64,000 nt of DNA from a virus. This document shows positions 2,129 to 42,303 of the stretch, piece after piece. The DNA lies in the IMG/VR virus record IMGVR_UViG_3300037245_001077, positions 96,001 through 160,000 of that record. One strand, written 5' to 3'. The translations under genes were made by a program, and so were the position numbers. The first letter of the stretch is position 1. Each line of letters starts with the position of its first letter. The notes under the pieces are model-generated. The model did no database searches. It was not told where the DNA came from and saw nothing but the letters and a program-made list of their open reading frames with translations.

Positions 2129-4066
2129 ATGTCTCATATCAAACATGTCCCAATTCCATGGGACGACTTTCTTTCTCTGGAAGATACACCAGGCAGTTGG
2201 GGGTCAGTAGGGGAGTTTGTACGGATAAATACAGGTCCAAATGGATTAGAGTTTACGTCTGACGTGGTTCAAAAGACCGGGTCTACAATGACCGACTTCT
2301 TGACACTCCATGCAGATCCGACTTCGAATTTGCACGCAGCTACCAAACAGTATGTTGATGGCGTAGCTCAGGGACTGGATATTAAAGAGTCGGTGGTAGC
2401 AGCTACAACCGCTGCTATTACCCTTGAGGATGAACAAACCATTGATGGTGTGGGAGTTGTAGAGGGTGATCGGGTTTTGGTCAAGGACCAAGATCCGGGT
2501 AACCCTCATGCTGCTAACGGTATCTACATCTGTGTTGATTCTGGCGCATGGACTCGTTCCCCGGATGCTGATACGGATGAGGAAGTTACCTCGGGTATGT
2601 TCTGTTTCGTTGAAGAAGGAACTGCCAACGGGGACACGGGTTGGGTGCTAACAACTAATGATCCGATTACGGTTGGTACAACCGCGATTGAGTTCACCCA
2701 ATTCTCGGGCGCAGGAACCTACACCAATGGTGCTGGTCTGTTGCTGTCTGGTAACGAATTTGCAGTAGACTTTGAGGATACCAACGGTAATATCGCTCCT
2801 ATTGGTACTCAGGACTCTGGTTCAAGCGACAAGGTTGCTCGGGCTGATCACGTTCACGCACACGGTGATCAAGCGGGTGGTTCACTTCACTCTGATGTTG
2901 TTGCGGCTGGTGCTGATGGTTTCATGACCGGGTCTGACAAGACCAAGTTAGATAGCATTGATACAGATGCTGAAGTCAATCAGTTTGCCTTCTCTAACGT
3001 TGATGTAGACGCGGCTACCACAGTTCTTGCTGCTGAAGCCAAAACCGATACTTTGTATGTCACAGGTGGTGCAGGAATAACCCTTACAGGTACTGAGGGT
3101 ACTGACACCTTAGATATTAAGATGACTACAGGTACCGAAGACTATGTAATGATTATGGGGGCTTCTGACCCAGGTTGGGTAGCGCACTCTTTCTTGCTTA
3201 TGTCTGACACTCCAAGTTCTTGGAATGATAATTACCGCGTTAAGGTGAATGGTACTGCTCTTGAGTTTGTAAACGATACGATTTCAAATCTTGAGGATGT
3301 TGATTCTCTTGTTGCAGACGCTTTTGCGGTTGTTAACGGGGCTGGAAACGCTGTTACGTTTGTTCCGGCTACCTCTACTCAGGGCGATATCATGTACTTC
3401 AATGGTACCACCTGGGCTGGTCTAGGTATTGGTACCGAAGACCATGTTCTGACATCGAATGGTGGGGCCGCAAATCCTGAATGGAAAACCAATCCTGCTG
3501 GTGTGACTACCTGGATCGCCCTGTCGGACGTTGACGAGGCGGACTATTCTGGGCACGGGAATTGGTTGGTTCGGGTTAATAACGGGGGCACTCCAGACGG
3601 TCTTGAGTTTGTTGATATGACGGGTGCTCCGTCCTCAGCTACGAATAACCAGACCCTCTATTGGAATGGTTCTGCCTGGACCGCGAGCAGCATTATCTAT
3701 AACGATCATGGAAACGCTGAGGTTGGTATCAATACGGCAACTCCGAACGCTACGTTGCATGTCAACGGTTCGATTTCGGCCAAGTTGATCACTCAGACTG
3801 GTGACTACGATTTGGACACGGGTACGAATAGCGATGTCTATACTATCCTGCACAATAACACTGGTCAAGATAACACCATTACTCTTCCGGCTGTGGCAAC
3901 TTACTCTGAGCGTATCTACAATATTAAGAAGATCAGTGGTCCGACCTTCAAGACTATCATTGCTACGACAGATGGGACTATTGATGGTGCTTCTACTTAC
4001 GACCTTGACCAGCAGTATGAATCGGTTACAGTTGTGAGTGATGGATCGAACTGGCACATCGTATAA
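2129..4066 (+). CDS. tail fibre protein
   Basis: HADPTSNLHAATKQYVD, GDRVLVKDQ..NGIY, ARADHVH, GFMTGSDKTKLDSI and VGINTATPNATLHVNG are typical phage fibre motifs; AGGAGG RBS. Confidence 0.85.
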   Translation: MSHIKHVPIPWDDFLSLEDTPGSWGSVGEFVRINTGPNGLEFTSDVVQKTGSTMTDFLTLHADPTSNLHAATKQYVDGVAQGLDIKESVVAATTAAITLEDEQTIDGVGVVEGDRVLVKDQDPGNPHAANGIYICVDSGAWTRSPDADTDEEVTSGMFCFVEEGTANGDTGWVLTTNDPITVGTTAIEFTQFSGAGTYTNGAGLLLSGNEFAVDFEDTNGNIAPIGTQDSGSSDKVARADHVHAHGDQAGGSLHSDVVAAGADGFMTGSDKTKLDSIDTDAEVNQFAFSNVDVDAATTVLAAEAKTDTLYVTGGAGITLTGTEGTDTLDIKMTTGTEDYVMIMGASDPGWVAHSFLLMSDTPSSWNDNYRVKVNGTALEFVNDTISNLEDVDSLVADAFAVVNGAGNAVTFVPATSTQGDIMYFNGTTWAGLGIGTEDHVLTSNGGAANPEWKTNPAGVTTWIALSDVDEADYSGHGNWLVRVNNGGTPDGLEFVDMTGAPSSATNNQTLYWNGSAWTASSIIYNDHGNAEVGINTATPNATLHVNGSISAKLITQTGDYDLDTGTNSDVYTILHNNTGQDNTITLPAVATYSERIYNIKKISGPTFKTIIATTDGTIDGASTYDLDQQYESVTVVSDGSNWHIV

Positions 4067-4078
4067 TCGGAGAGCTGT

Positions 4079-6361
4079 GTGAGCCATATTCTAGAATTTC
4101 TAGACTTAGTAGACGTTCCGAATTCTTATTCCGGGGCAGATAACTACCGACTGAAAATTGATGGCACGGCGGTGGAGTTTGTTGATGACACTGTTCTCAA
4201 CTTAAATGACACTCCGGCCACTTTTTCAGGATATCCGTCTGCGTATGTGAAAGTAAATTCTGGGTCTTCGGCCCTGGAGTTTGTGACGGATGATACTCTT
4301 CATTTTACTGTAGATGGTGAGATTAGTGCGCTTGATGTTGCTTCACCAGCAGCTACAGATGTTCTTGTTATAGAAGATGCTTCTGACACTTGGAGTAAGA
4401 AGAAGGTTACAGCTCAAAGCATTGCAGATTTAGGTGGGGGTGGCACAGATGATGATGCTATCCACGATAACGTAGCAAACGAAATTACCGCTATTGCAAA
4501 TAAGATTTCAGTAGCCGACGCTGATGAGTTTATCATTGAGGACGGTGAAGCGTCTTATATTAAGAAAGCTGTAACAGCAAAGAATTTTGGTGCTTATGTT
4601 GAAGCTAGTATGGGTGGTCCGTTTTTGGCGGCAGATGGATCTGTTCCTTTAACGGCTGATTGGGATGCTGGTTCTTTTGAAATAAGAGCAGATCAGTTTT
4701 ATGCGGACGGGACAGGAGCACCTTTTATTGTTTCATCATCAGTTCAAGTTTCTAATCTTAATGCAGACTACCTAGATGGTGTTCATCTTGATGGCATTGA
4801 TTACTCAGTAATAACCACAAATGATGCCTCTACTAATATAGTTGCTGAGGAATTAGAGGAGCTTTCAGATGGAAGTTCTACTACACTCCACACTCATGCA
4901 AATATTGGGAATGGCCCCTTCCTTCCTTTAACGGGAGGTAATTTAAGCGGTAATCTGTATATTGATACCGCTACGACTCCTGCGCTTCAGGTTCGTCCGA
5001 GTGGTGGAGCAGTCGATAGACTGGTAATCAGTGCTGCTGCGGGGATCACTTCGATATCGAAATACGATGACACGGGTCAGACAATTATTAGGATTGATCC
5101 GATCCCGTCAGATGGTACAAGCGCAGCATTGTTTCAGCTTTTTCGTACCACAAGCACCTCTGGTACTCGTACACTCACCATGTATGAGGGTGATGGTACT
5201 GCTACTGTCCAACACGAATTTAATTTAGGAACAGGAGCTGTTAGTCTGTGCCAGCAAGCTGGGGATTTGACTGTTGGTGGTCATTTAGGGCTAAAATCTG
5301 TTCCTACAGACCCAGGTGCCACAACAGAAGTTCGGGTAGGCTTAGGTACTGGTGGGTCATTTAGAGTACAAACAGATCTCGCATATTTGGATATAGGACC
5401 ACAGACTAGCGCATGGTGCCATATGACTACAAGTGCATCAAGTGGTTTCTATTTTTCTAATCCAGTAAGGATGTCTCAGCTTTTAACTTGCGGAGATGCT
5501 TGGGGTAGCGCGTTATGGACCCGTGGCGTGATTAAGATTGATAATAATGTTTGGGGTGGAATGGGCTACATGAATGCTGCTCCCATACTTTATCTCGCGG
5601 ATAACAACACCGGAGCATTACAATTTCTACTTGGCACTTTTTCTCAAGCTCGGACGTACAATTTTACTATTCGAGGGACAAACTGGTATAACACTAGAAA
5701 ACCGTGGGAAATTATTTGTACTGTTCAGGTTGGTACAGGGCCGGGTGCTGCTGAGCTTTACGCAGAGGTGGTCGCTGGTTTCCCGCCATTTGATGTAGTA
5801 AGTATTGCTAAAGACGGTTCAGGTAACGAGTGTATTATTTTTGGTGACGAGTCTTCCACTGTTCTTGGGTACTACTGTAACATTACTGTCCCTCACTTTA
5901 CATCTAGTGGTAATCCTGGGATAGGTGCGGTTGATGATTTTACTCTCACTAGAATCACAAGTGTTTCTGGGTACGTCTTTTATCAAACAGATGTAGCCAT
6001 TAGCAATCCCCATCAAGCTCCTAGCACAACCGCAGTTACTCGGCATGGTGCGGCTAATGCTGTTGCGGGGTATAGCTATTACACTATTGTGGATCTGAGT
6101 GCTGGACCGTATATGGTTTGTTTGATTATGAACAATGATTCGATAGAATCTATGAGATTTAGGGTTACGTGTGATGGCACAGTTACTTGGTTAAGCCCTA
6201 GTAATATTCTCATCGGGCAGGTAGATACTGGTCCCGGTGCAGCTCTTAATGTTGCACCCATCTTTGCCCGTAAGTCATTAAAAATAGAAAAATACAACCC
6301 GTATTCAACAACTAAGACACTCACTCACCTGCTTGTATATCACACACTGAGTTTTAACTAA
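4079..6361 (+). CDS. tail fibre / receptor-binding protein
   Basis: GTG start; DTP-type repeats, APFIVSSSVQVSNLNADYLDG and FLPLTGGNLSGNL motifs; divergent C-terminal part. Confidence 0.8.
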   Translation: MSHILEFLDLVDVPNSYSGADNYRLKIDGTAVEFVDDTVLNLNDTPATFSGYPSAYVKVNSGSSALEFVTDDTLHFTVDGEISALDVASPAATDVLVIEDASDTWSKKKVTAQSIADLGGGGTDDDAIHDNVANEITAIANKISVADADEFIIEDGEASYIKKAVTAKNFGAYVEASMGGPFLAADGSVPLTADWDAGSFEIRADQFYADGTGAPFIVSSSVQVSNLNADYLDGVHLDGIDYSVITTNDASTNIVAEELEELSDGSSTTLHTHANIGNGPFLPLTGGNLSGNLYIDTATTPALQVRPSGGAVDRLVISAAAGITSISKYDDTGQTIIRIDPIPSDGTSAALFQLFRTTSTSGTRTLTMYEGDGTATVQHEFNLGTGAVSLCQQAGDLTVGGHLGLKSVPTDPGATTEVRVGLGTGGSFRVQTDLAYLDIGPQTSAWCHMTTSASSGFYFSNPVRMSQLLTCGDAWGSALWTRGVIKIDNNVWGGMGYMNAAPILYLADNNTGALQFLLGTFSQARTYNFTIRGTNWYNTRKPWEIICTVQVGTGPGAAELYAEVVAGFPPFDVVSIAKDGSGNECIIFGDESSTVLGYYCNITVPHFTSSGNPGIGAVDDFTLTRITSVSGYVFYQTDVAISNPHQAPSTTAVTRHGAANAVAGYSYYTIVDLSAGPYMVCLIMNNDSIESMRFRVTCDGTVTWLSPSNILIGQVDTGPGAALNVAPIFARKSLKIEKYNPYSTTKTLTHLLVYHTLSFN

Positions 6362-8174: not shown

Positions 8175-8205
8175 ATGGGGACGGATTGCCGTCCCCATTT
8201 GTTTA
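8175..8205 (+). terminator. Rho-independent terminator
   Basis: ATGGGGACGG-ATTG-CCGTCCCCAT perfect 10-bp stem followed by TTGTTT. Confidence 0.85.
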
Positions 8206-8817: not shown

Positions 8818-8846
8818 TTGACAAACAAACAACCTACGAGTATACT
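8818..8846 (+). promoter_or_regulatory. host sigma70-type promoter
   Basis: TTGACA (8818-8823), 17-nt spacer, TATACT (8841-8846), A-rich upstream region. Confidence 0.85.
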
Positions 8847-8865: not shown

Positions 8866-9633
8866 ATGTCATCAGGATGGTTTGCAGATTTGGGTTGGTG
8901 GGATCAACATGCGGCTTATGCCGCCTTCGATTCTTACAGATCCGATCCTACCTTAGACCAGTTCGATAATGCTATTACCCTTTCCCTCCCCATTATCCGC
9001 GTAGTTTATTCCACTCAAAAATTCAAAGTATCTTATGCAGGAGATGAAGATGATCTTATCTCCCATGCTGCGTTAACAATCACTAAAGCGTTACCAAAGA
9101 TGATTGAAAAACCTGTAGAAAAGCTTGATAATGACAAGAAGTATATGCGTTATTTGTTCACATGTGTCATCAATGCCTTTTATAGAGAGTACGATATCCT
9201 TCATGGTAAGCAGAATAAGCTCACAAGAAAAATTCTTGAAGAACACGAACCCGAAGAAACATACGCCGAAGCACGTAACGTGAAGGCCCTGGAAGCCAGT
9301 CTCACCCTTAAACGCATCCCCCGGCAGCTATTAACATTTGCTATGGAATGTGTCCGGTTTGAGGATGGCTCCAGAAAAGTGTGTAAGTACATCCTAGAAC
9401 AAATGATTGATGGTCGTGAAATTGCTAAGTCGGTCCTCCAGCTTATGGGTTGCAAGGACCGACATTTCTTTATCCACTATTGTGAGAGTATCTTGCTTCA
9501 GGCATTTCTTCTTCTTCGTAAGAGGAAGCCTTTGGTTGGAGGAACAACCTTTGAGGGGCAAGTCTCTCATGAAGACTCTGAGAGTTCTTTTGACCTTGGG
9601 TACTTCATGGATGAAGGTTACATGGGTGCATAG
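8866..9633 (+). CDS. phage sigma-factor-like protein (sigma70 region 2; gp55-like late sigma candidate)
   Basis: DEDDLISHAALTITKAL...KYMRYLFTCVINAFYREY resembles the region 2 pattern of T4 gp55-type sigma factors; region 4 degenerate. Confidence 0.6.
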   Translation: MSSGWFADLGWWDQHAAYAAFDSYRSDPTLDQFDNAITLSLPIIRVVYSTQKFKVSYAGDEDDLISHAALTITKALPKMIEKPVEKLDNDKKYMRYLFTCVINAFYREYDILHGKQNKLTRKILEEHEPEETYAEARNVKALEASLTLKRIPRQLLTFAMECVRFEDGSRKVCKYILEQMIDGREIAKSVLQLMGCKDRHFFIHYCESILLQAFLLLRKRKPLVGGTTFEGQVSHEDSESSFDLGYFMDEGYMGA

Positions 9634-9645
9634 ATGTTGAGTTAT

Positions 9646-9775
9646 AGTGCCCCGAATAAGGACATTGTGTAACTGGTGCTCTGAAACTTGTAATACACTC
9701 GGGATACACCGGGGAACATTAAACCAAGAACGTTGAGAACCACTACATGATGCGAGCCTGTTTGGGGCACTTTTT
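9646..9775 (+). ncRNA. putative structured RNA (long irregular rod hairpin) ending in a U-tract
   Basis: Nested helices found by hand: 9646-58/9759-71, 9663-71/9744-52, 9674-81/9735-42, 9687-90/9725-28, 9691-94/9718-21, 9698-702/9709-13; five G-U pairs. Confidence 0.6.
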
Positions 9776-9785
9776 AAGGTGCTAA

Positions 9786-10037
9786 ATGGACAACCCTAAT
9801 ATACTTCCTCCCATTTTCGGGGAGCTTATATCTTTAGCTGATAAAGTAGAGCAAATAGATGGAAAGGTTATCGAGGCGTATTGTTTGAGCCTTGATGACG
9901 AGGAATCTTTTATGCCTGAACTTGTTGGTATTATCGGTCCTATGGCGTTCCAGATGCTAGTATGCTACTATGGTGGTCAGTCAATGCGGATTCCTTGCCC
10001 AGAGGATATTTTGGCTAAGCTGAAGGAGAATTCATGA
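9786..10037 (+). CDS. Mor/C-family transcription activator-like protein (dimerisation part only)
   Basis: LVGIIGPMAFQMLVCYYGGQSMRIP matches the Mor motif L..IG......L...FGG..(Y)IP; no HTH follows. Confidence 0.6.
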   Translation: MDNPNILPPIFGELISLADKVEQIDGKVIEAYCLSLDDEESFMPELVGIIGPMAFQMLVCYYGGQSMRIPCPEDILAKLKENS

Positions 10038-16188: not shown

Positions 16189-18006
16189 ATGCCTGAAAAT
16201 AAATTGATTCAGGGCTTTATGCGTATGACTGGGCTGGATAAGGTTATTCAGCGTGAAGTAGCTCTACGCGCACAGCTCGGGGGTATCCAAACTCAATTCG
16301 CTGGTGGTGATGACCTTGTTGGGGATTTGGCTACTATTGAAGAGGCCCTAAGTCAGTTCAATATGATTACCCGGATGCATCGTGAACGTAGGATGCGTTA
16401 TCGGGATTACGAAGCGATGGACAACTACGGAGACGTATCCGTAGCTTTAGATATCTATGCGGAAGAGGCTACTCAGACTGATCTCGTTAAGGACGAGAAC
16501 CTCTGGGTAACGGGTGACGATGCTCGTGCAGTAGAAGAGGTGCAAAAATTTCTTGTTAAGCACCGTATGCATACCCTGATCCAGGGGTTTGCTCGGAATC
16601 TTGCTAAGTATGGAGACATGTTCCTATCCTTGAGGTATACGTATGAGGGGATTGATCGTATTCTCTATCTTCCCCCGGACTATATCCACCGTATTGGCCC
16701 TAGTCTGGATCAGATTAAGCACTTCAAGCTGGAGCACCAGCTTGCCAAGGTTTCTCCCCGTCAAGATGGGCTGTTGCTCCCTTGGGAGTGTGTCCATTTA
16801 AGATTGCTTTCGTTCGGGTTCTCCACTCTTTATGGGCGTTCTATGATTGAGCCTGCACGTAAGCGTTGGTTGCACCTAAAACTTCTTGAAGATGCGGTTG
16901 CTATCTACCGTTTGAATCGGGCTGTTGAGCGGATCGTTTTCTACATCGATGTGGGTTCTGCTTCACCTTCTGAGTCTCTGCGGATTGTAAACACCTACAA
17001 ACGGAAGTTTGGAAATAAGCGTTCTTACATTGATCCGTCGCAGGGTACATTCGAGCAGCAGTATGACCCCCACAACATGTTGGAAAACATCTACTGGCCT
17101 GTGAATAGTGCTACTGAGCGATCTCGCATCGAGAAGCTGAACCCTCCGCCTGAGCAGGGACAACTTCAGGATCTTGATCACTTCAACGAGAAACTTTATG
17201 TGGCTCTAGGTATTCCGCGTGATTACCTAACTGGAGAAACTTCAGGAAGCTGGAATAGCCGGGAAGCTTTGGCTCTTCAAGATGTTCGATTCTCCCGTAA
17301 GCTACATATGCTTCAGATTGCTCTCCTAGAGGGCCTGGAGACCCTGTGCCGCTTCCACCTTGCTGTCCTGTGGGGCGATCCTGACAGAGCGGTAGCAGCT
17401 CGGTTTAATCTCCATCTAGCGGATATCTCTAAGGTAGCTCGCCAACAGTACGACACCGTTATGCTTAATCGTATCCAGCTCTTGACCATGATGAATGATC
17501 TTGGTACTCAAATGAGCTTTAACCGGGACGTGTGGGTACCGTTTGTTGTTGAGAACTTCTTCCCTGATATTCCGAAAGAAATGATTTCGCAGTTGATCAT
17601 CCCTGATGAAGAGTTGGCTGCGGCAGGAGATGAGTTAGACGCTATGAGAAATCCTCCTCCTGCTGCGGCAGCAGCTAAGAAACCTGCTGCGGCAGCAGCC
17701 AAGAAACCTGCTGCGGCAGCAGCCAAGAAACCTGCTGCTAAAAAGAAGAAGACTACTACTGAGGTTATCCGGCACACGATCATGAATGATTTGTTGAGCC
17801 GTAATCTCGTAGAAGATAAGGACAAAAAACTTTTAGAAGATCTCCTTGCTGTAAGTGGGACCATACAGGGTCCACAGGATTTCTCTTTTACTTTAGACCA
17901 CCCTGTAGAAATTCCACGGAAAGTTTTACAAGAGTTGGTGAAGCAACATTCGAGGAAGAAGAAGCCTAATAGTGTCCTCGTGGAGACAACCAATGGGGGT
18001 AAGTAG
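16189..18006 (+). CDS. portal protein (T4 gp20-like)
   Basis: YRDYEAMD..DVSVALDIYAEEA, LKLLEDAVAIYRLNRAVERIVFYIDVG and DLDHFNEKLYVALGIP are gp20 family motifs. Confidence 0.93.
   Translation: MPENKLIQGFMRMTGLDKVIQREVALRAQLGGIQTQFAGGDDLVGDLATIEEALSQFNMITRMHRERRMRYRDYEAMDNYGDVSVALDIYAEEATQTDLVKDENLWVTGDDARAVEEVQKFLVKHRMHTLIQGFARNLAKYGDMFLSLRYTYEGIDRILYLPPDYIHRIGPSLDQIKHFKLEHQLAKVSPRQDGLLLPWECVHLRLLSFGFSTLYGRSMIEPARKRWLHLKLLEDAVAIYRLNRAVERIVFYIDVGSASPSESLRIVNTYKRKFGNKRSYIDPSQGTFEQQYDPHNMLENIYWPVNSATERSRIEKLNPPPEQGQLQDLDHFNEKLYVALGIPRDYLTGETSGSWNSREALALQDVRFSRKLHMLQIALLEGLETLCRFHLAVLWGDPDRAVAARFNLHLADISKVARQQYDTVMLNRIQLLTMMNDLGTQMSFNRDVWVPFVVENFFPDIPKEMISQLIIPDEELAAAGDELDAMRNPPPAAAAAKKPAAAAAKKPAAAAAKKPAAKKKKTTTEVIRHTIMNDLLSRNLVEDKDKKLLEDLLAVSGTIQGPQDFSFTLDHPVEIPRKVLQELVKQHSRKKKPNSVLVETTNGGK
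17659..17739 (+). repeat. 24-bp tandem repeat (3 copies plus partial) encoding PAAAAAKK
   Basis: CCTGCTGCGGCAGCAGC(T/C)AAGAAA at 17659, 17683 and 17707, partial at 17731. Confidence 0.95.
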
Positions 18007-30401: not shown

Positions 30402-30767
30402 ATGGAAGCACGGCGGCTGATTGACGCAGACATCATCTTAGGGGAGTCCCTTACAAGATTCCATCTTGCGATGGACAACTCGATGTTTCCTGATAGCAGC
30501 ACCGAACTCCATGTAGCTCACCATCCGAATGGTGACCTTAGAGAACCGGCACAATGGTACAATGTTTACGAACATCCTACTGAGCACCAGCTCAAGCTAG
30601 TTCGTGAAGCACTTAATATCGATGAGGACGACTGGAGGATTGTAGAGCACATGCTCGGATCTTTTCGCTGGGTTATTTACCAGCATGTTGACCCCTCAAA
30701 ACGCGCTGAAATTCGTGTCGATGTTGCCGGTATGAAGGCCGGTGAATGGACAACAACCTACTTCTAG
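30402..30767 (+). CDS. hypothetical protein
   Basis: ORF preceding the protease. Confidence 0.55.
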   Translation: MEARRLIDADIILGESLTRFHLAMDNSMFPDSSTELHVAHHPNGDLREPAQWYNVYEHPTEHQLKLVREALNIDEDDWRIVEHMLGSFRWVIYQHVDPSKRAEIRVDVAGMKAGEWTTTYF

Positions 30768-30777
30768 GAGATCACTG

Positions 30778-32313
30778 ATGACTGACCTGATCGAAGTTAT
30801 GCCCTTTGAATATCAGATTGTAGAATCTGAGAATGGCGCGTTCCGCGTTGAAGGGGTTTTCCAACGGTCAGATGTCGAGAATGCTAACAAGCGTGTTTAC
30901 CCCCGTCGTATCTGGGAAAAAGAACTGGGTGAGAAGAGGGTCATGGAAGCCCTTGAAAGCCGTTCTATGTACGGTGAACTGGATCACCCGTCCGATGGGA
31001 AAACGATGTTGAAACGTGTGTCTCATGTAGTTACTAATCTTTCTCTTACTGAGGATGGAACAGTAACTGGCGGGGCAGACATTTTGCCTACACCAAATGG
31101 CCAGATCCTACGCACTCTTTTTGAGTCGGGTACCCAAGTCGGTATTAGTTCTCGGGGGTCAGGTTCCGTACAAGGCGGTGTAGTACAGGAGGATTTCAAG
31201 CTCGGTACTTTTGATTTCGTAGCGCGACCCTCCACCCCAGGTGCGCTCCCCCGCCATGCGGGGGAAATTAGCGGTAAAAAGTCCCGCACAGAAGGTGACG
31301 ATACTATCGAGAATGTTGTCGTAACAGATGCAGGGGAAATGGACTCCGATCTTTTCGACAAGCTTTGTCAAGAATTAGAAACCCTTGATGCTGGCGGCAT
31401 TGTTGATGGTAATCTAACTGAAAGTGAACTTTCTACCATGGATTTCAATGACATCGGTCACGACGTTACAGTGTTGTATAATGCTGTAATGGGAGAACAG
31501 GAGTTCTCTCCTGAATTTGTGGACGCAGTCAGTGAAGATATCCTAAATCTCGGTGGAACACTAACTCAATTAGCGGCTGACCACCCCGAACATGGAATAG
31601 TTATTTCAGATCTACTAGAAAAAGTCGAGAAAAGCCGTGGGGCTGTGATTGCACAAGTCCCACAAGAAATTGTTAAGGAGGAACCCATGGACAGGCTTCA
31701 ATTCATTAAGGACCGTCTCCAAGAGCGCTCTGACAACCAAGTTTTAAGCGCTGAGGAGGAGATCATGCAAGAAGCCGATGAGCTGCGTCAGGAGCTAGAA
31801 GAGCTTACTGATGACGAGTTGATTGACGTAGCCTTGAAAACTGGTGTTCTTGAGCCAGATGGCGTTGACGAAGACGATGACGATGACGAGCCGGAAGCGG
31901 AAGTCACCGTTCAGGATCTTTTGGATTACATCGAAGAACTTGAGAACGATCACGAAGAGGCGACAAACTTGGTTGTGGAGTTGGCGGAGGCCCTTGAAGA
32001 GACAGAAGATGTTGATGACATCACACTAAAGTACGAGGCTTCGTTGAACATCATCCAAGAGACCGTTGGTCGTTATCAACTTCTACAAGAGGCAGTCGGT
32101 GGCGAAGAGAAGGCCGAAGCGATTATGGAAGCCCATATTCAGGCCCTCGAAGCTGCATCAGAAGTCACCGAGAGTGGTGACAAAAAGAGAACCCTTACAG
32201 AAGACGACGATGTCGCCGCTGTTGAGGCACTTTTGAACCAGGACGATCCAGAGGGTGACGCTGAGATGCAGCGTTACGTAGAACTCGCAGAGAGTGCCCT
32301 CGGGTTGAACTAG
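30778..32313 (+). CDS. prohead protease (T4 gp21-like) fused to acidic scaffold domain
   Basis: VEGVFQRSDVENANKRVYP, YGELDHP, VSH, ILPTPNG, VGISSRGSGS and FDFVARPS motifs; start ATG 30778 after AGGAG. Confidence 0.92.
   Translation: MTDLIEVMPFEYQIVESENGAFRVEGVFQRSDVENANKRVYPRRIWEKELGEKRVMEALESRSMYGELDHPSDGKTMLKRVSHVVTNLSLTEDGTVTGGADILPTPNGQILRTLFESGTQVGISSRGSGSVQGGVVQEDFKLGTFDFVARPSTPGALPRHAGEISGKKSRTEGDDTIENVVVTDAGEMDSDLFDKLCQELETLDAGGIVDGNLTESELSTMDFNDIGHDVTVLYNAVMGEQEFSPEFVDAVSEDILNLGGTLTQLAADHPEHGIVISDLLEKVEKSRGAVIAQVPQEIVKEEPMDRLQFIKDRLQERSDNQVLSAEEEIMQEADELRQELEELTDDELIDVALKTGVLEPDGVDEDDDDDEPEAEVTVQDLLDYIEELENDHEEATNLVVELAEALEETEDVDDITLKYEASLNIIQETVGRYQLLQEAVGGEEKAEAIMEAHIQALEAASEVTESGDKKRTLTEDDDVAAVEALLNQDDPEGDAEMQRYVELAESALGLN
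31687..32313 (+). CDS. nested in-frame scaffold protein (internal start)
   Basis: TAAGGAGG (31674-81) plus 5 nt plus in-frame ATG; very acidic coiled coil, 208 aa. Confidence 0.65.
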   Translation: MDRLQFIKDRLQERSDNQVLSAEEEIMQEADELRQELEELTDDELIDVALKTGVLEPDGVDEDDDDDEPEAEVTVQDLLDYIEELENDHEEATNLVVELAEALEETEDVDDITLKYEASLNIIQETVGRYQLLQEAVGGEEKAEAIMEAHIQALEAASEVTESGDKKRTLTEDDDVAAVEALLNQDDPEGDAEMQRYVELAESALGLN

Positions 32314-32346: not shown

Positions 32347-33723
32347 ATGCAAACCCAAGAACTTCACGCACTTGGTGATCTGGGCAAGCAACTTGCAGAA
32401 GGCCACTGGCGTCCACTCGTCGAGAGTATCGAAGATAAAAGCACCAGAGAGCTAACCGCAATTCTGCTAGAAAATGAGCGCAGGTATATTGCAAACATGG
32501 AAGAGGATGTTAGGATCCAGAGTATTGGATCGTTCGAGAAGTTCGTCTTCCCCATCGTTCGTGCTGTGTTCCCGAATCTTATTGCCAAGGATATCGTTAG
32601 TGTCCAGCCTATGACTGGACCGACATCATTGGTATTCTATCTTGATGCCGTGTATGGCACTACCAAAGGTAGCGTCACTGCCGGTGACACAATGTTCAGC
32701 GCCCGTAAGGGTCACCTTGCGGACGACCAGTACTCGTCTGAGTTCGTTGACGGCGAGAAGTATGCCGATTCGGGTGGTACTGCTGTATCATTCACACTTG
32801 GCTTCCATAGTTGCCGTCCGGGTACTTTCTCAGCGGTTTATGAGGATGCACAGGGCGGAAGCGATCTCGTTACCGTTAAAGATAATGGTGTTGGTGGTTT
32901 GACAGCTACTGGTGGTGATGGCATTACTGGTACTGTGACTATCAACTACGCTACTGGCGCAGTTGTATGGACCGCTTCTAGCACTATTGCTTCGACAATT
33001 GTTGGTAGCTACTACTACAATTCTGAGGGATCTGACCAGATTCCTATCGTTGACATCAACCTGTCCAGTGTGCCGGTTCGTGCGATTCCGCACAAATTGC
33101 GTGCTCGTTGGTCAGTTGAGGCCGCAACTAATCTGAAGGCCATCCATGGCATGGACGCTGAGTCTGAGCTGGTTGCCCTTCTCTCTGAGAAGATCCGGTG
33201 GGACGTTGATCGTAGAATCATCTCCGACCTCTTCACTATCGCTTCGGCTGGTTCCGTTACTTGGAACAAGCCCGCTCCTGCCGCGATTTCGTACAACGAT
33301 CACAAGCAGACCTTCATTGACGCACTCATTGAAGCCAGCAACCTGATCTTCCGTGCGACTCGTCGTGGTACTGGTAACTTCGTTGTGTGTGGCACCAACG
33401 TGTCGAACGTCATTGAGTCTCTCTATGGCTTCCGTCCGCAGGCTGTTGCAGGCAACGGTGTTGTGTTCGTTGGTACGCTCCAGGGTCGCTGGTCGATCTA
33501 CAAGGATCCGTACATGGACGCCGACAAGTTCCTCGTTGGTTGGAAGGGTTCTTCTTTCCTTGAGGCCGGTTACGTGTATGCTCCGTATGTGCCGCTGTAC
33601 ACTACACCAACTTACGTACTCGACGACATGTTGAACCGTAAGGGGATGATGAGTCAGTACGGTGTAAAGGCGATCAATGGCGACTTCTATGCGCTTGGTG
33701 AAGTCACTTACAATGTGGTGTAA
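32347..33723 (+). CDS. major capsid protein (T4 gp23-like)
   Basis: AILLENE, PIVRAVFPNLIAKDIVSVQPMTGPT, KLRARWSVEAA.NLKAIHGMDAESEL and AGYVYAPYVPL motifs. Confidence 0.96.
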   Translation: MQTQELHALGDLGKQLAEGHWRPLVESIEDKSTRELTAILLENERRYIANMEEDVRIQSIGSFEKFVFPIVRAVFPNLIAKDIVSVQPMTGPTSLVFYLDAVYGTTKGSVTAGDTMFSARKGHLADDQYSSEFVDGEKYADSGGTAVSFTLGFHSCRPGTFSAVYEDAQGGSDLVTVKDNGVGGLTATGGDGITGTVTINYATGAVVWTASSTIASTIVGSYYYNSEGSDQIPIVDINLSSVPVRAIPHKLRARWSVEAATNLKAIHGMDAESELVALLSEKIRWDVDRRIISDLFTIASAGSVTWNKPAPAAISYNDHKQTFIDALIEASNLIFRATRRGTGNFVVCGTNVSNVIESLYGFRPQAVAGNGVVFVGTLQGRWSIYKDPYMDADKFLVGWKGSSFLEAGYVYAPYVPLYTTPTYVLDDMLNRKGMMSQYGVKAINGDFYALGEVTYNVV

Positions 33724-33751: not shown

Positions 33752-33786
33752 AAGCCCCTCACAGTTTTGTGGGGGGCTTGTCTTTA
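33752..33786 (+). terminator. terminator after the capsid gene
   Basis: AAGCCCCTCACA-GTTT-TGTGGGGGGCTT stem followed by GTCTTTA. Confidence 0.75.
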
Positions 33787-33806
33787 TTGATATGACGGAG
33801 GAACTA

Positions 33807-34556
33807 ATGGCACTAGAAAAGTTTTTATATTTTGACAGGAAGCCTACTAATGTGTGCTGGAATGGCACGTCATTTCCTATCAACCCCAAGGACATTATTG
33901 AATGTCTCCCTGGCTTCATCAAGGCTTTTATTAATGAGAAGTGGTATAAGAAAGTACCTGCTGACGATACTCGTCCAGTGAAGTATACTTTCCCGGCCAC
34001 TCCCAGTTTCTTGACACCTGACCCCATGAAAGGTCTTCCTGTACGATCTACCGACAAGATTACCTCTGAGATGAGAGGTAAGGTACGCCCGGTAGTTGTC
34101 TTAGGGGATGAGCCTGAGCTTAACCCCTATGATCTTGGGGTTGAAGATGTTGTAGTGGACGAGAAACCTAGAGTGGTTGCTACTACGGCTATTCCTAAAG
34201 CAGCTCCTACTATCGTTGTACCTGCTCCCAAGGTTGAAGAAGAAAAGACCGAAGACTTCGATACCGATGAAGAAGAAACAGAAGAGACTACAGTAGAGTT
34301 GGATTTACCCGCTCCTCCTGATGAGAAAGATGTCCAGGTTGATCCGCCTGAAGCTGATCAAGGGCCAGGGATTCCTTTGAAGTCTGCCCTGCGGATCGAG
34401 AATAGGGATCTCATTTATGACCGCATGGTGGGTGTACGTGATGCGGGATGTCCTTTGAACCCGGATATGGTGGATACCTTCAGCGAGTTTAGGACTAAAA
34501 GCACTCGGGGTATTATGTTCAAGGCTCTGTGGAAGTATTACGGATTTGACGACTAA
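33807..34556 (+). CDS. hypothetical protein with acidic/Pro linker
   Basis: GGAGG at 33797 favours ATG 33807 over 33792. Confidence 0.55.
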   Translation: MALEKFLYFDRKPTNVCWNGTSFPINPKDIIECLPGFIKAFINEKWYKKVPADDTRPVKYTFPATPSFLTPDPMKGLPVRSTDKITSEMRGKVRPVVVLGDEPELNPYDLGVEDVVVDEKPRVVATTAIPKAAPTIVVPAPKVEEEKTEDFDTDEEETEETTVELDLPAPPDEKDVQVDPPEADQGPGIPLKSALRIENRDLIYDRMVGVRDAGCPLNPDMVDTFSEFRTKSTRGIMFKALWKYYGFDD

Positions 34557-38119: not shown

Positions 38120-39964
38120 ATGATGGGTATTTATGTATCTCCTGGTGTGTACACTCGGGAAATCGATCTTTCGTTGTACGTACCATCACTGTCTACTACA
38201 ATCGTAGGCATGGTTGGTGTGACAACCAAGGGACCGACTCAAGAACGTACTTACATTTCTAATCAACAGCAGTTTATCGAGGTTTTTGGCCAGCCTGATC
38301 CTGCCGTGGGTGTTGAAGCTTTCTCAGCTTTGCAGTACCTACGACGTGGTCGCCAGCTCTGGTTCGTTCGTGTGGTAGGTGACGCTGCTGCAAAAGCCAC
38401 AGTAACCATGACCTATGGAGATCCTACGCTGGCTGAAACGATCAACACTGACCCCGATGGTATCTTGGTGGCTTTTGCTCACGATGATACAGGTGGTTCG
38501 GTATTCACCAACCTGCCCATTACTCCTGGGTCTATTGACATCACAGCAGTTATTGGTACATCTGATTATCAGATCACTGATGATGGTCTTGGTGCCCTAT
38601 CGGGAACTGGCCCAACTGGTGGAATCACAGGTGCTATCGACTATGTAAATGGTGAGTGGAATATTGCTTTCAACGCATCTGACCCGCCAGATGACCTCTC
38701 AGATCTCATAGCTGATTACAGCGCAGCGGTAGAGGCGTTTGAGGCTGAAGCATTGAGTGAAGGTGAGTGGGGTAACAGCGTTTCGCTTACCGTTTCTGCG
38801 GGTACTGAAGCCAACACCGTACTCCTCGAAGTTTGGTTTGAAGGCATAAAGGTTGAGCGTTTCAACAACGTAGACCTTGATGACACCACTGGAAACGCAC
38901 AGTTTATCGAAACTAAGATCAATGGCGTGTCTGACTTCATTACAGTTACCTTGGACGTTGGTCTTGTTGGTGCCTCTAGTGAGTTGCCCTCGATTACAAC
39001 TACAGCACAGAGCCTAGTTGATGGAGACACTGACGCTTCTGCTATACTAGCCGATAATATCATTGGTGAGGCGTGGAACGTTGGCTTGTCACAATCGACT
39101 GGATTGCAGCTCTTCGCTTCTCCGAGTGCGGTAGACATTAACCTGTTGGCTGCTCCTGGTTGGGCAGACGCGGCAGTGGTCAATGAGTTGCTCCAAATCG
39201 CAGAAGTCCGTGCGGATTGTATGTCGATCATTGACCCGCCAGCGGGTCTGCGTCCTTCCGAGGTTGTAGACTGGCACAATGGTGCAGGTACTTACGCTGG
39301 GCAGCACGCAGCTTTCAATAGCTCCTATGCTGCTTTGTACTACCCGTGGGTCAAGGTGTACGACGCTTATAACGGCACATACGTTTGGACGCCTCCGTCC
39401 GGTCACGTGCTGGCTGTGTACGCCTACAGCGACTACACTACTGAGACTTGGTTCGCTCCAGCCGGTTTGAACCGTGGTCGTGTGATTTCGGGTGTTGACA
39501 TCGCGTATGACCCGACTCCGGGTGAGTTTGATCTGATGTACGGTGACGGTAACGCGGTCAACGGTATTGCACGCTTCACAAAGGACGGCTTGGTTGTTTG
39601 GGGCCAACGTACCCTACAACGTAAGCCTAGCGCACTCGACCGTGTGAACGTTCGTCGTCTTCTCTTGTATCTCCACAAGGTTATTTCGACCTCAGTTCGT
39701 TACCTTGTGTTCGAGCCGAACGATGAAAAGACTTGGAAGCTGTTCGGCCACTTGGTTACCCCGTATCTTAACGATGTCCGTCAGCGTCGTGGGCTGTATG
39801 ACTTCCGTGTAAAGTGCGATGAAAGCACTAATACCCCTGCGGTTATTGACCGGAATGAAATGCACGCACAGATCTTCCTGAAGCCCGTAAAGGCTGCTGA
39901 GTTCATCCAGGTGGATCTCGTGATTACTGCAACCGGTGCGAACTTTGACGAAGTACTTTACTAG
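38120..39964 (+). CDS. contractile tail sheath protein
   Basis: YVSPGVYTREIDLS, YAALYYPW, PPSG, WFAPAGLNRG, VWGQRTL, RVNVRRL, VFEPND and KPVKAAEFI motifs. Confidence 0.96.
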   Translation: MMGIYVSPGVYTREIDLSLYVPSLSTTIVGMVGVTTKGPTQERTYISNQQQFIEVFGQPDPAVGVEAFSALQYLRRGRQLWFVRVVGDAAAKATVTMTYGDPTLAETINTDPDGILVAFAHDDTGGSVFTNLPITPGSIDITAVIGTSDYQITDDGLGALSGTGPTGGITGAIDYVNGEWNIAFNASDPPDDLSDLIADYSAAVEAFEAEALSEGEWGNSVSLTVSAGTEANTVLLEVWFEGIKVERFNNVDLDDTTGNAQFIETKINGVSDFITVTLDVGLVGASSELPSITTTAQSLVDGDTDASAILADNIIGEAWNVGLSQSTGLQLFASPSAVDINLLAAPGWADAAVVNELLQIAEVRADCMSIIDPPAGLRPSEVVDWHNGAGTYAGQHAAFNSSYAALYYPWVKVYDAYNGTYVWTPPSGHVLAVYAYSDYTTETWFAPAGLNRGRVISGVDIAYDPTPGEFDLMYGDGNAVNGIARFTKDGLVVWGQRTLQRKPSALDRVNVRRLLLYLHKVISTSVRYLVFEPNDEKTWKLFGHLVTPYLNDVRQRRGLYDFRVKCDESTNTPAVIDRNEMHAQIFLKPVKAAEFIQVDLVITATGANFDEVLY

Positions 39965-42262: not shown

Positions 42263-42303
42263 CAGCCTGCCTTGCATCTTTTATGAGGGCAGGCTGTATT
42301 TTT
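42263..42303 (+). terminator. terminator after the tube gene
   Basis: CAGCCTGCCTT/AGGGCAGGCTG stem followed by TATTTTT. Confidence 0.8.

What the first reader, a model, noticed from the sequence alone, without database searches (positions are those of the whole stretch)
9646..9775. ~126-nt rod-shaped RNA with multiple G-U pairs
Seen: nearly the whole intergenic gap folds into one unbranched hairpin of over 40 bp in six or seven helices. It has a 13-bp closing stem AGTGCCCCGAATA/TGTTTGGGGCACT, an apical loop GATACA and a following U-run. Five G-U pairs argue for selection at RNA rather than DNA level, and it is far longer than a terminator. Inference: a 6S-like RNAP decoy, an RNase III processing site, an attenuator or a packaging-related RNA.
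Basis: partly seen in the sequence, partly recalled or inferred. Interest (0 to 1): 0.8.

Follow-up and report, generated by a model that had tools for sequence, protein, structure and literature searches.

The report
Conserved rod RNA after phage sigma gene
A 126-nt hairpin-shaped RNA, kept in shape by compensating mutations in 15 related uncultured T4-like phages, sits between the phage's own sigma-factor gene and the next gene, looks like an oversized leaky terminator, and in half the phages seems to bring that gene's ribosome-binding site and start codon together.

Summary
Window 9646-9771 (+) folds into one unbranched 44-bp rod with 5 G-U pairs, apical loop GAUACA and a U-run (RNA z -5.55; minus strand -2.49; ssDNA -1.92).

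It is a real, conserved, non-coding RNA family that is absent from Rfam. A covariance model finds it once per genome in 15 distinct related phage loci, always at the same junction. 35 of 38 pairs show double compensatory changes, and 88.6% of cells are paired against 35-46% in slid controls.

Context:
- The upstream 255-aa gene is a gp55-like sigma factor driven by a conserved host-type promoter (TTGACA-17/18-TATAnT).
- The downstream 83-aa gene is weakly Mor-like.
- The U-run is kept in all copies, and the start codon follows within 6-19 nt.
- In 7 loci the 3' spacer has no Shine-Dalgarno, and in 6 of these a GGAG/AAGGA lies at the 5' foot instead. That is a T4 gene 38/25-type split RBS, but spanning about 130 nt.
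- One nested lineage lost the rod cleanly.

Best reading: a cis-acting intercistronic element, an extended-stem attenuating terminator and 3'-end protector integrated into the next gene's initiation region. An RNase III site or a stable sRNA is not excluded. A 6S, packaging or DNA-level role is unsupported. No expression data could be obtained. The scan had noted this locus only on this same window.

The parts
8818..8846 (+). Host sigma70-type promoter TTGACA-17-TATACT that drives the transcript carrying the sigma gene and the rod
   Evidence: Scores 11 of 12 in the consensus scan. The same TTGACA-17/18-TATAnT lies 16-20 nt before the sigma gene start in most of the 20 related loci (16 of 20 score at least 10 of 12 at that distance), and TTGACA is perfect in 19 of them.
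8866..9633 (+). 255-aa gp55-like phage sigma factor gene (sigma region-2 domain plus a second helical domain); stop codon TAG at 9631-9633, 12 nt before the rod
   Evidence: No Pfam, PHROG or PDB sequence match. AF2 model has pLDDT 78.6. Best structural match is T4 gp55 in the late open complex, 7d7c_F, Z 10.9, rmsd 3.7 over 108 residues, followed by about 50 sigma region-2 domains. The Foldseek top list is nearly all sigma factors. Helical folds give middling Z scores easily, so this is likely but not proven.
9646..9771 (+). The rod RNA: 126 nt, 44 bp, unbranched
   Evidence: fold; 15 distinct homologues found by CM R1; 35 of 38 pairs with double changes; independent MAFFT/RNAalifold gives the same helices, 26 of 30 pairs compensatory; no frame stays open across homologues.
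9646..9661 (+). 5' arm of the basal G+C-rich stem (13 bp, a bulged A, then 2 bp)
   Evidence: Helix 1 of the consensus: 15 pairs, 97% of cells paired, 13 pairs with double changes.
9757..9771 (+). 3' arm of the basal stem, abutting the T-run
   Evidence: helix 1.
9698..9718 (+). Apical 5-bp hairpin (loop GAUACA) followed by the conserved unpaired AACA (9715-9718); together with the A/U-rich strands around it this forms the conserved central/apical module
   Evidence: AACA and the hairpin-closing G/C are the most conserved letters of the family (at least 85-90%). The hairpin covaries in 4 of 5 pairs.
9771..9775 (+). T-run (U-tract) directly after the basal stem
   Evidence: A run of 4-6 T within 0-3 nt of the stem is present in all 15 homologues. 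The phage's ordinary terminators at 8175-8198, 33752-33779 and 42263-42296 have the same stem plus T-rich tail style but 10-12 bp stems.
9776..9788 (+). Shine-Dalgarno AAGGTG (9776-9781) and start codon ATG (9786-9788) of the next gene; in this window the SD is on the 3' side of the rod
9786..10037 (+). 83-aa gene whose initiation region is built around the foot of the rod; weakly Mor-like (FGG..I.IP motif), without a recognisable HTH
   Evidence: Alignment A7. Pfam Mor PF08765 is hit by 4 of 14 homologues, best E 0.0022, below threshold. AF2 model is poor, pLDDT 67.7, and has no fold match.

Best explanation
The rod is a cis-acting structured domain of an early phage mRNA. Host RNA polymerase starts at the conserved sigma70-type promoter (8818-8846), transcribes the phage's gp55-like sigma gene and then the rod. 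The G+C-rich 13-15 bp foot followed by a U-run acts as an intrinsic, leaky terminator (an attenuator). Transcripts that stop there carry the sigma gene with a very stable 3' hairpin that protects them from 3' exonucleases. Transcripts that read through carry the folded rod inside the initiation region of the next gene, the 83-aa Mor-like protein that heads the long rightward gene block. Because the two feet of the rod lie side by side, the Shine-Dalgarno can sit on either side of it. In this window it is 3' of the rod. In about half of the relatives it is 5' of the rod, and the rod brings it within about 7-13 nt of the AUG, as in the split ribosome-binding sites of T4 genes 38 and 25 but over about 130 nt instead of 22-27. 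The conserved interior (covarying helices, an apical hairpin followed by unpaired AACA, and A/U-rich strands) is more than a terminator needs and probably binds a factor, either protein or nuclease, that tunes termination, processing or translation. Shown: the structure, its conservation, its sense-strand bias, its fixed position, the U-run, the promoter, and the SD distribution. Inferred: termination, read-through, mRNA protection, split-RBS function, and factor binding.
For: - Structure and RNA-level selection: z -5.55 on the + strand against -2.49 on the - strand and -1.92 as ssDNA. The + strand is more stable in 12 of 14 homologues. 35 of 38 pairs show double changes, 88.6% of cells are paired against 35-46% when partners are slid, and 0 of 500 shuffles reach this. 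An alignment not fitted to the model gives the same result.
- Cis position: there is one copy per genome in the own record and in four related records. It always lies 3-19 nt after an upstream stop codon and 6-19 nt before the homologous start codon.
- Terminator-like foot: the T-run is kept in 15 of 15 copies, in the same style as this phage's ordinary terminators.
- Transcription from upstream: the TTGACA-17/18-TATAnT promoter is conserved before the sigma gene. There is no room and no recognisable promoter between the rod and the next gene, or at the 5' foot.
- Read-through and split RBS: 7 of 15 loci have no SD in the 3' spacer (+1.5 to +4.3 kcal/mol), although these phages use strong SDs (median -5 to -9). 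Six of those seven have GGAG or AAGGA 0-6 nt before the 5' foot (-5.2 to -7.5; background frequency 15%). None of the 8 loci with a 3' SD has a 5'-foot SD better than -3. Spearman is -0.64. L048, fetched after the idea was formed, fits it (-6.6 at the 5' foot, spacer ATTTTTT). The 5'-foot AATTGGAG of L030 corresponds to the ordinary SD AATTGGGAG of the rod-less sister L042. The gene after the ordinary capsid-gene terminator has a normal 3' SD.
- Precedent: T4 genes 38 and 25 (PMC3014915).
Against:
- A 126-nt hairpin lies outside the usual terminator geometry, and the simple scan does not call it.
- Rod-less relatives have no terminator at this junction (L042, L034, L039), or have a promoter there instead (L040, L023). 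So termination here is not a conserved need, and one nested lineage (L042) lives without the rod.
- If termination were efficient, the split RBS would be pointless, so the two roles fit together only if the terminator is leaky.
- The loci with a 5'-foot SD may descend from only one to three events (unresolved polytomy), so the statistics are not phylogenetically independent.
- A U-rich leader could instead support SD-independent initiation through ribosomal protein S1.
- The conserved interior is not explained by this model except through an unnamed factor.
Confidence: 0.5

Rival explanations
1. RNase III-type processing site. The long quasi-continuous duplex (13+2+9 bp and more) is cut by the host's double-strand-specific RNase. 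This separates the sigma message from the downstream message and leaves stabilising half-hairpins, as at the T7 intercistronic sites or the lambda N leader. This is compatible with the best explanation rather than exclusive of it.
For: The rod is intercistronic within a polycistronic transcript. It has at least 22 bp of near-coaxial helix conserved by covariation along its whole length, not only at the foot. Selection on helices with little sequence conservation is what a dsRNA-specific nuclease would impose.
Against: Cleavage in the lower stem would sever a 5'-foot SD from its AUG in the seven loci that have that arrangement. RNase III does not explain the conserved U-run or the conserved unpaired AACA. 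The host is unknown and no cleavage data exist.
Confidence: 0.2
2. A discrete stable small RNA acting in trans. It would be released as the 3' end of the sigma mRNA (a 3'-UTR-derived sRNA ending at its own terminator) and would bind a protein such as RNA polymerase or sigma (6S-like decoy) or Hfq, or would base-pair with targets through the A/C-rich strand after the apical hairpin.
For: Paired 5' and 3' ends plus a U-tail would make a very stable RNA. The conserved single-stranded AACA and the A/U-rich strand sit next to a hairpin. It lies next to a sigma gene and downstream of a strong host-type promoter.
Against: No promoter is seen at its 5' foot. There is no Rfam match to 6S, Y RNA or any other family even at E <= 10. 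At 126 nt it is short for a 6S RNA, and only a 5-6 bp hairpin lies beyond the central loop. Only about 4 unpaired letters are conserved, which is too few for a seed. The fixed geometry at the start codon and the side-switching SD point to a cis role.
Confidence: 0.15
3. A sensor: a riboswitch-like or protein-responsive terminator-embedded element. Binding of a ligand or of a phage protein (the sigma factor, or the 83-aa protein in a feedback loop) to the central/apical module would stabilise or open the rod and so set read-through and translation of the downstream block.
For: The conserved internal-loop letters and the covarying interior go beyond what a terminator needs. The foot serves as terminator stem and RBS organiser at once. 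The position is between two putative transcription regulators.
Against: There are very few invariant nucleotides (4 invariant and about 10 nearly invariant columns out of about 150), far fewer than in small-molecule aptamers. No conserved alternative (antiterminator) pairing was found. No binding partner has been identified.
Confidence: 0.08
4. A DNA-level element: a cruciform or single-strand hairpin acting as a replication origin, packaging signal or recombination site.
For: It is a long imperfect palindrome in an intergenic gap ahead of the structural gene block.
Against: As ssDNA it folds only marginally better than shuffles (z -1.92). G-U pairs and the + over - strand bias in 12 of 14 homologues are not expected for a duplex-DNA palindrome. 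The conserved U-run and the start-codon geometry are transcript features. No terminase or replication gene was recognised nearby.
Confidence: 0.03

Closest known systems
Split ribosome-binding sites of bacteriophage T4 genes 38 and 25 (Nivinskas et al. 1999; Malys & Nivinskas 2009; reviewed in PMC3014915)
   Same: Found in a T4-type phage. A stable hairpin lies between the Shine-Dalgarno and the AUG and brings them to a functional distance (22 to 5 nt and 27 to 11 nt in T4; about 135-145 nt down to about 7-13 nt here). It is present in one clade and absent in relatives.
   Different: The intervening structure is about five times longer. It has a conserved, covarying interior of its own and ends in a U-run. 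In half of the family, including this window, the SD is on the 3' side, so the rod is not there only to mend spacing.
Intrinsic (Rho-independent) terminators and attenuators
   Same: A G+C-rich stem is immediately followed by a conserved U-tract. It lies at the end of a gene read from a host-type promoter, in the same style as this phage's ordinary terminators.
   Different: The hairpin is 126 nt and 44 bp instead of about 20-40 nt. The next gene starts 6-19 nt later without a promoter of its own, so any termination must be partial.
RNase III processing hairpins of T7 early/late mRNAs and the lambda N-leader / sib sites
   Same: Long irregular intercistronic hairpins in phage polycistronic mRNAs, lying just upstream of a start codon. 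They can both stabilise the upstream message and modulate translation of the downstream gene.
   Different: There is no sequence relationship. Cleavage is untested, and the conserved U-run and the unpaired AACA are not RNase III features.
6S RNA (Rfam RF00013) and other RNAP-binding RNAs (Ms1)
   Same: A rod-like RNA with paired ends and a large internal loop, encoded next to a sigma factor gene.
   Different: No covariance-model match. It is about 126 nt against about 180 nt, has no long terminal helix beyond the loop, and has no promoter of its own.

Membership tests
Any Rfam 15 family (including 6S, Y RNA/YrlA, riboswitches, ribozymes) | Covariance-model score at or above the gathering threshold | tested here: not met
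   No match in the whole window at gathering thresholds. In 9400-10000 at E <= 10 there are only four chance-level hits, all outside the rod.
6S RNA | About 160-200 nt with a closing stem, a large central bubble and a long terminal stem | tested here: not met
   126 nt. Beyond the central loop there is only a 5-6 bp hairpin.
6S RNA | Binds the sigma70 holoenzyme and templates pRNA | not testable with these tools
   Needs biochemistry.
Intrinsic terminator | G+C-rich stem immediately followed by a U-tract | tested here: met
   13-15 bp foot, 97% paired, followed by T4-6 within 0-3 nt in 15 of 15 copies.
Intrinsic terminator | Compact hairpin (stem up to about 20 bp, loop 3-8 nt) | tested here: not met
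   44 bp and 126 nt. Not called by the terminator scan, which does call the phage's ordinary terminators.
Intrinsic terminator | RNA 3' ends generated at the U-tract | not testable with these tools
Split RBS (T4 gene 38/25 type) | SD and AUG too far apart in the primary sequence, with no SD at the normal distance | tested here: met
   Met in 7 of 15 loci (L003, L004, L011, L008, L030, L014, L048): 3' spacer anti-SD energy +1.5 to +4.3 kcal/mol. Not the case in this window, which has AAGGTG in the 3' spacer.
Split RBS (T4 gene 38/25 type) | A stable intervening structure brings the SD to a functional distance from the AUG | tested here: met
   The SD lies 0-6 nt before the 5' foot and the AUG 6-12 nt after the 3' foot, so about 7-13 nt through the foot. 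The rod is at -43 to -57 kcal/mol.
Split RBS (T4 gene 38/25 type) | Translation depends on the structure and on the distal SD | not testable with these tools
   Needs reporter fusions with disruptive and compensatory mutations.
RNase III substrate | At least about 20 bp of near-continuous double helix | tested here: met
   13+2+9 bp interrupted by 1-4 nt bulges, then further helices.
RNase III substrate | Specific cleavage by RNase III | not testable with these tools
   Needs an enzyme assay; the host is unknown.
T4 gp55-type late sigma factor (for the upstream gene) | Sigma region-2 fold closest to gp55 | tested here: met
   7d7c_F: Z 10.9, rmsd 3.7, 108 residues; then sigma region 2 of many factors at Z 8-9.5. 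Caveat: Z under 13 is common for helical models.
T4 gp55-type late sigma factor (for the upstream gene) | Sequence-family membership | tested here: not met
   No Pfam, PHROG or PDB profile match.
Mor/C transcription activators (for the downstream gene) | Pfam PF08765 above threshold, and a C-terminal HTH | tested here: inconclusive
   4 of 14 homologues hit Mor weakly (best E 0.0022), and the window's copy does not. The protein ends shortly after the FGG..I.IP motif. The model was too poor for a fold search.

The most novel reading that the evidence does not exclude
The rod is a bifunctional regulatory RNA of a new type. A single 126-nt domain serves both as a factor-tuned terminator and as the scaffold that assembles the ribosome-binding site of the next gene across about 130 nt, by far the longest split RBS known. 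It would gate the step from the host-transcribed phage sigma factor to the downstream (Mor-like regulator and structural) gene block. The conserved apical hairpin-AACA module would be the docking site of the factor that sets the switch, possibly RNA polymerase or the phage sigma factor itself.
Probability: 0.2. Interest if true: 0.8.

Novelty: new variant of a known kind. Interest (0 to 1): 0.6.

Why it matters
It adds a well-supported, previously uncatalogued structured RNA family from uncultured T4-like phages of sediments and wetlands. It sits at a regulatory joint, between a host-transcribed phage sigma factor and the next gene block. If the split-RBS reading is right, ribosomes can use a Shine-Dalgarno and a start codon separated by a folded 130-nt domain. 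That stretches the known T4 gene 38/25 principle about five-fold and matters for gene finders, which would miss such starts. If the foot is a leaky terminator, it is an example of a terminator whose 'loop' has been elaborated into a conserved functional domain. In any case it gives a concrete, testable handle on how this phage group times its own sigma factor against downstream genes.

Tried and rejected
- Rfam at gathering and permissive thresholds: nothing. tRNA/tmRNA scan: nothing.
- blastn of the locus against 50,697 GenBank phages: no match, so there is no cultured relative.
- A whole-genome sliding-window fold scan timed out and was replaced by a scan of intergenic gaps. Other structured gaps exist, but none is a rod with a U-run.
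- Exact-pattern scans for the apical motif. In viral contigs the first pattern re-found only known contigs. In GTDB genomes 22 hits and in viral contigs 119 hits for a second, looser pattern were filtered with the CM. Only known members survived. L054, a Bacteroidetes MAG, scored 22.6 bits but has no rod and is a chance match.
- Coding potential: no frame is open across the homologues, and the 42-aa minus-strand ORF 9642-9770 is not conserved.
- Promoter inside or just before the rod: none found by consensus scan or by eye.
- A boxA-like UGCUCU in the window copy lies in a covarying helix and is not conserved, so I treat it as chance.
- From memory I considered and dismissed several other kinds. 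Y RNA: the foot sequence covaries instead of being conserved, and there is no Rfam hit. phi29 pRNA: branched, and belongs to a different phage type. Retron or omega RNAs: no RT or TnpB nearby. MITE/ERIC-type repeats: the rod is single-copy, with RNA-strand bias. Gene-60-type translational bypass: the downstream gene has its own conserved ATG, and some loci have an extra ORF in between.
- Fold search with the 83-aa model returned nothing; the model was poor.
- No complex prediction was attempted.

Full report
**What the window is.**
All long ORFs run on the + strand. They include a T4-type portal (16189-18006), prohead protease (30742-32313), gp23-type major capsid protein (32347-33723) and tail sheath (38120-39964). 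The window is bases 96001-160000 of a 176.5-kb IMG/VR virus record. No GenBank phage resembles the locus at DNA level. It is therefore an uncultured T4-like myovirus.

**The observation.**
Window 9646-9771 folds as RNA into one unbranched rod of 44 bp. The 13-bp foot is 9646-9658 with 9759-9771, followed by a bulged A and 2 bp. Next come helices of 9, 4, 3, 4 and 4 bp and an apical 5-bp hairpin (9698-9713) with loop GAUACA. There are five G-U pairs, and the T-run is at 9771-9775. The MFE is -47.6 kcal/mol and z is -5.55 against dinucleotide shuffles. The opposite strand gives z -2.49 and the same strand as ssDNA gives z -1.92. The rod fills the gap between the stop codon of ORF 8866-9633 and the start of ORF 9786-10037.

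**Conservation.**
I fetched relatives through the flanking proteins. Six first homologues already showed the same rod in the same gap despite about 40% sequence divergence, with 27 of 38 predicted pairs compensatory.

A covariance model built from them (R1) finds the element in 15 distinct loci: the window, L024, L043, L002, L005, L004, L003, L037, L011, L041, L031, L008, L030, L014 and L048. It is always on the coding strand and always immediately upstream of the 83-aa gene homologue. It occurs once per record in the own genome and in four related records.

On the 14-sequence alignment:
- 35 of 38 pairs show changes on both sides.
- 88.6% of cells are standard pairs, against 35-46% when the 3' partners are slid by 1-3 columns.
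- No shuffle out of 500 reaches the observed values.
- A MAFFT alignment not fitted to the model recovers the foot, the middle helices and the apical hairpin, with 26 of 30 pairs compensatory.
- The + strand fold is more stable than the - strand fold in 12 of 14 homologues, by about 7 kcal/mol on average.
- No reading frame stays open across homologues.

This is a genuine non-coding RNA structure under selection, and Rfam 15 has no family for it.

**Anatomy of the family.**
- The foot (15 pairs, 97% paired) is G+C-rich and is followed within 0-3 nt by 4-6 T in every copy.
- The middle helices covary but vary in register.
- Towards the tip lies a large A/U-rich internal loop, then a 5-6 bp hairpin closed by G-C, followed by a nearly invariant unpaired AACA (window 9715-9718).
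- Only about 14 columns are invariant or nearly so.

**Neighbours.**
The 255-aa upstream protein has 58 homologous clusters, all unnamed, and no Pfam, PHROG or PDB sequence match. A 45-sequence AlphaFold model (pLDDT 78.6) matches sigma factors almost exclusively in Foldseek. In the VIA re-alignment its best match is T4 gp55 in the late-promoter open complex (7d7c_F: Z 10.9, rmsd 3.7 Å, 108 residues), ahead of about 50 sigma region-2 domains. It is therefore probably the phage's own gp55-like sigma factor with an extra C-terminal helical domain. The caveat is that helical models easily reach such Z values.

A near-consensus host-type promoter lies 19 nt before its start (TTGACA-17-TATACT, 8818-8846). 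The same promoter is found at the same place in most of the 20 related loci, including those without the rod. So host RNA polymerase reads the sigma gene, and the rod lies on that transcript.

The 83-aa downstream protein is conserved and weakly resembles the N-terminal part of Mor activators: 4 of 14 homologues hit, best E 0.0022. Its model was too poor to search with, and I leave it as 'weakly Mor-like, function unknown'.

**Position relative to translation signals.**
The rod begins 3-19 nt after an upstream stop codon. The start codon of the 83-aa gene, fixed by protein homology, follows the 3' foot by 6-19 nt.
- In eight loci, including the window (AAGGTG at 9776-9781), the 3' spacer holds a Shine-Dalgarno.
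- In seven loci (L003, L004, L011, L008, L030, L014, L048) it holds none: anti-SD duplex energies are +1.5 to +4.3 kcal/mol and the spacers are only 6-12 nt of U-rich sequence.
- In six of these seven, GGAG or AAGGA lies 0-6 nt before the 5' foot (-5.2 to -7.5 kcal/mol). Such a match occurs in 15% of random 12-mers from these loci.
- None of the eight loci with a 3' SD has a 5'-foot match better than -3. The two energies are anticorrelated (Spearman -0.64, p 0.014, not corrected for phylogeny).

These phages otherwise use strong SDs, with a median of -5 to -9 kcal/mol per locus. The gene after the ordinary terminator downstream of the capsid gene has a normal SD after that terminator. L048 was retrieved after the hypothesis was written down (note) and it conforms.

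The sigma-protein tree places the rod-less L042 as sister of the rod-bearing L008/L014 (support 100/96). L042's ordinary SD, AATTGGGAG followed by 12 nt and ATG, corresponds to the AATTGGAG at the 5' foot in L030.

The simplest reading is that the folded rod juxtaposes its two feet, so the SD works from either side. This is the principle shown experimentally for T4 genes 38 and 25, where hairpins reduce 22 nt to 5 and 27 nt to 11 (PMC3014915), but here it spans about 130 nt. It also means the rod is part of a translated, read-through mRNA.

**Distribution.**
The rod is absent from the outgroups L034 and L039, where other genes are inserted. It is absent from the L035/L040/L023 clade, where a 45-aa acidic ORF takes its place and, in L040 and L023, a second TTGACA-17-TAGTAn promoter precedes the 83-aa gene. 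It is also absent from L049 and from the nested L042. So it was gained once or lost several times, with at least one secondary loss, and it is not indispensable. It is not a dispersed repeat. Pattern scans of viral and prokaryotic collections, filtered with the model, gave no further member.

**Mechanism.**
Taken together, the evidence best supports a cis-acting intercistronic element: host promoter, sigma gene, then the rod. The G+C-rich foot plus U-run matches the style of the phage's ordinary terminators at 8175-8198, 33752-33779 and 42263-42296. A long hairpin that zips from tip to foot as it emerges can still close next to the U-tract (inference from the established terminator mechanism).

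Termination would give a sigma message capped by an extremely stable 3' hairpin. Because the next gene has no promoter of its own and, in half the family, needs sequence from both sides of the rod, termination must be partial, which makes it an attenuator. The covarying interior and the conserved hairpin-AACA module exceed what termination or bridging needs. They point to an unidentified binding partner, either a nuclease such as RNase III or a phage or host protein.

What is shown: structure, conservation, strand, position, U-run, promoter and SD distribution. What is inferred: termination, read-through, stabilisation, split-RBS function and factor binding.

**Rivals.**
An RNase III site is compatible with the best explanation and cannot be separated from it here. 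A stable trans-acting sRNA (6S-like or Hfq-type) is possible. It lacks a promoter, a family match and 6S geometry, and it does not explain the start-codon geometry. A riboswitch-like sensor is weakened by the small number of conserved letters. A DNA-level role is disfavoured by the strand bias, the G-U pairs and the weak ssDNA fold.

**Limits.**
I have no expression data and no cultured host. The loci with a 5'-foot SD may represent as few as one to three evolutionary events. The sigma and Mor assignments rest on structure prediction and on sub-threshold profile hits.

**Earlier notes.**
Earlier notes of this scan on the same window (e1-5743410, e1-5743409) had proposed a sigma-like gene, a Mor-like ORF and the sigma70 promoter. 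I tested these here, with the results given above. The scan has not recorded this element on other DNA.

Noticed in passing
window 8866-9633: The 255-aa protein is a sequence-orphan family (58 clusters, all 'hypothetical'). Its model is closest to T4 gp55 and sigma region 2, with an additional C-terminal helical domain (residues 139-220) and an acidic disordered tail. It may be an unrecognised class of phage sigma factor in T4-like phages.
   Followed up: partly
window 8818-8846 and the equivalent site in 19 related loci: The perfect TTGACA plus TATAnT promoter before the sigma gene is conserved across the whole family, including rod-less relatives. In the window the -10 lies inside the palindrome GAGTATACTC, which could be an operator.
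   Followed up: partly
L035:3219-3356, L040:2046-2186, L023:~2060-2190: In one rod-less clade a conserved 45-aa, very acidic ORF occupies the place of the rod. In L040 and L023 it is followed by a second sigma70-type promoter so close to the 83-aa gene's ATG that the mRNA would be nearly leaderless.
   Followed up: partly
L002:3755-3997, L005:3716-4015, L011:3228-3476: In three rod-bearing loci an extra 80-99 aa ORF lies between the sigma gene and the rod. So the rod is tied to the downstream gene's start rather than to the sigma gene's stop.
   Followed up: no
window 33752-33810: An ordinary terminator after the major capsid gene (12-bp stem, T-rich tail). The ORF list starts the next gene at 33792, right on the tail, but a second in-frame ATG at 33807 has a proper GGAGGA SD and is the likelier start.
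   Followed up: partly
G000:C1:174059-174248 (outside the window): The most strongly structured intergenic gap of the genome on the + strand (-68 kcal/mol, z about -7.7 against mononucleotide shuffles). It is multi-hairpin, not a rod, and was not examined further.
   Followed up: no
G000:C1:80436-80549 (outside the window): The gap contains a T-arm-like GGTTCGAGTCC on the + strand, so the phage probably carries at least one tRNA gene outside this window. None is in the window.
   Followed up: no
window 2129-6361: Two large tail-fibre-like genes (PHROG tail fibre / head decoration hits at residues 55-210 of the 645-aa protein) lie upstream of the regulatory module. So the sigma-rod-Mor-like unit sits between a fibre block and the head/portal block.
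   Followed up: no
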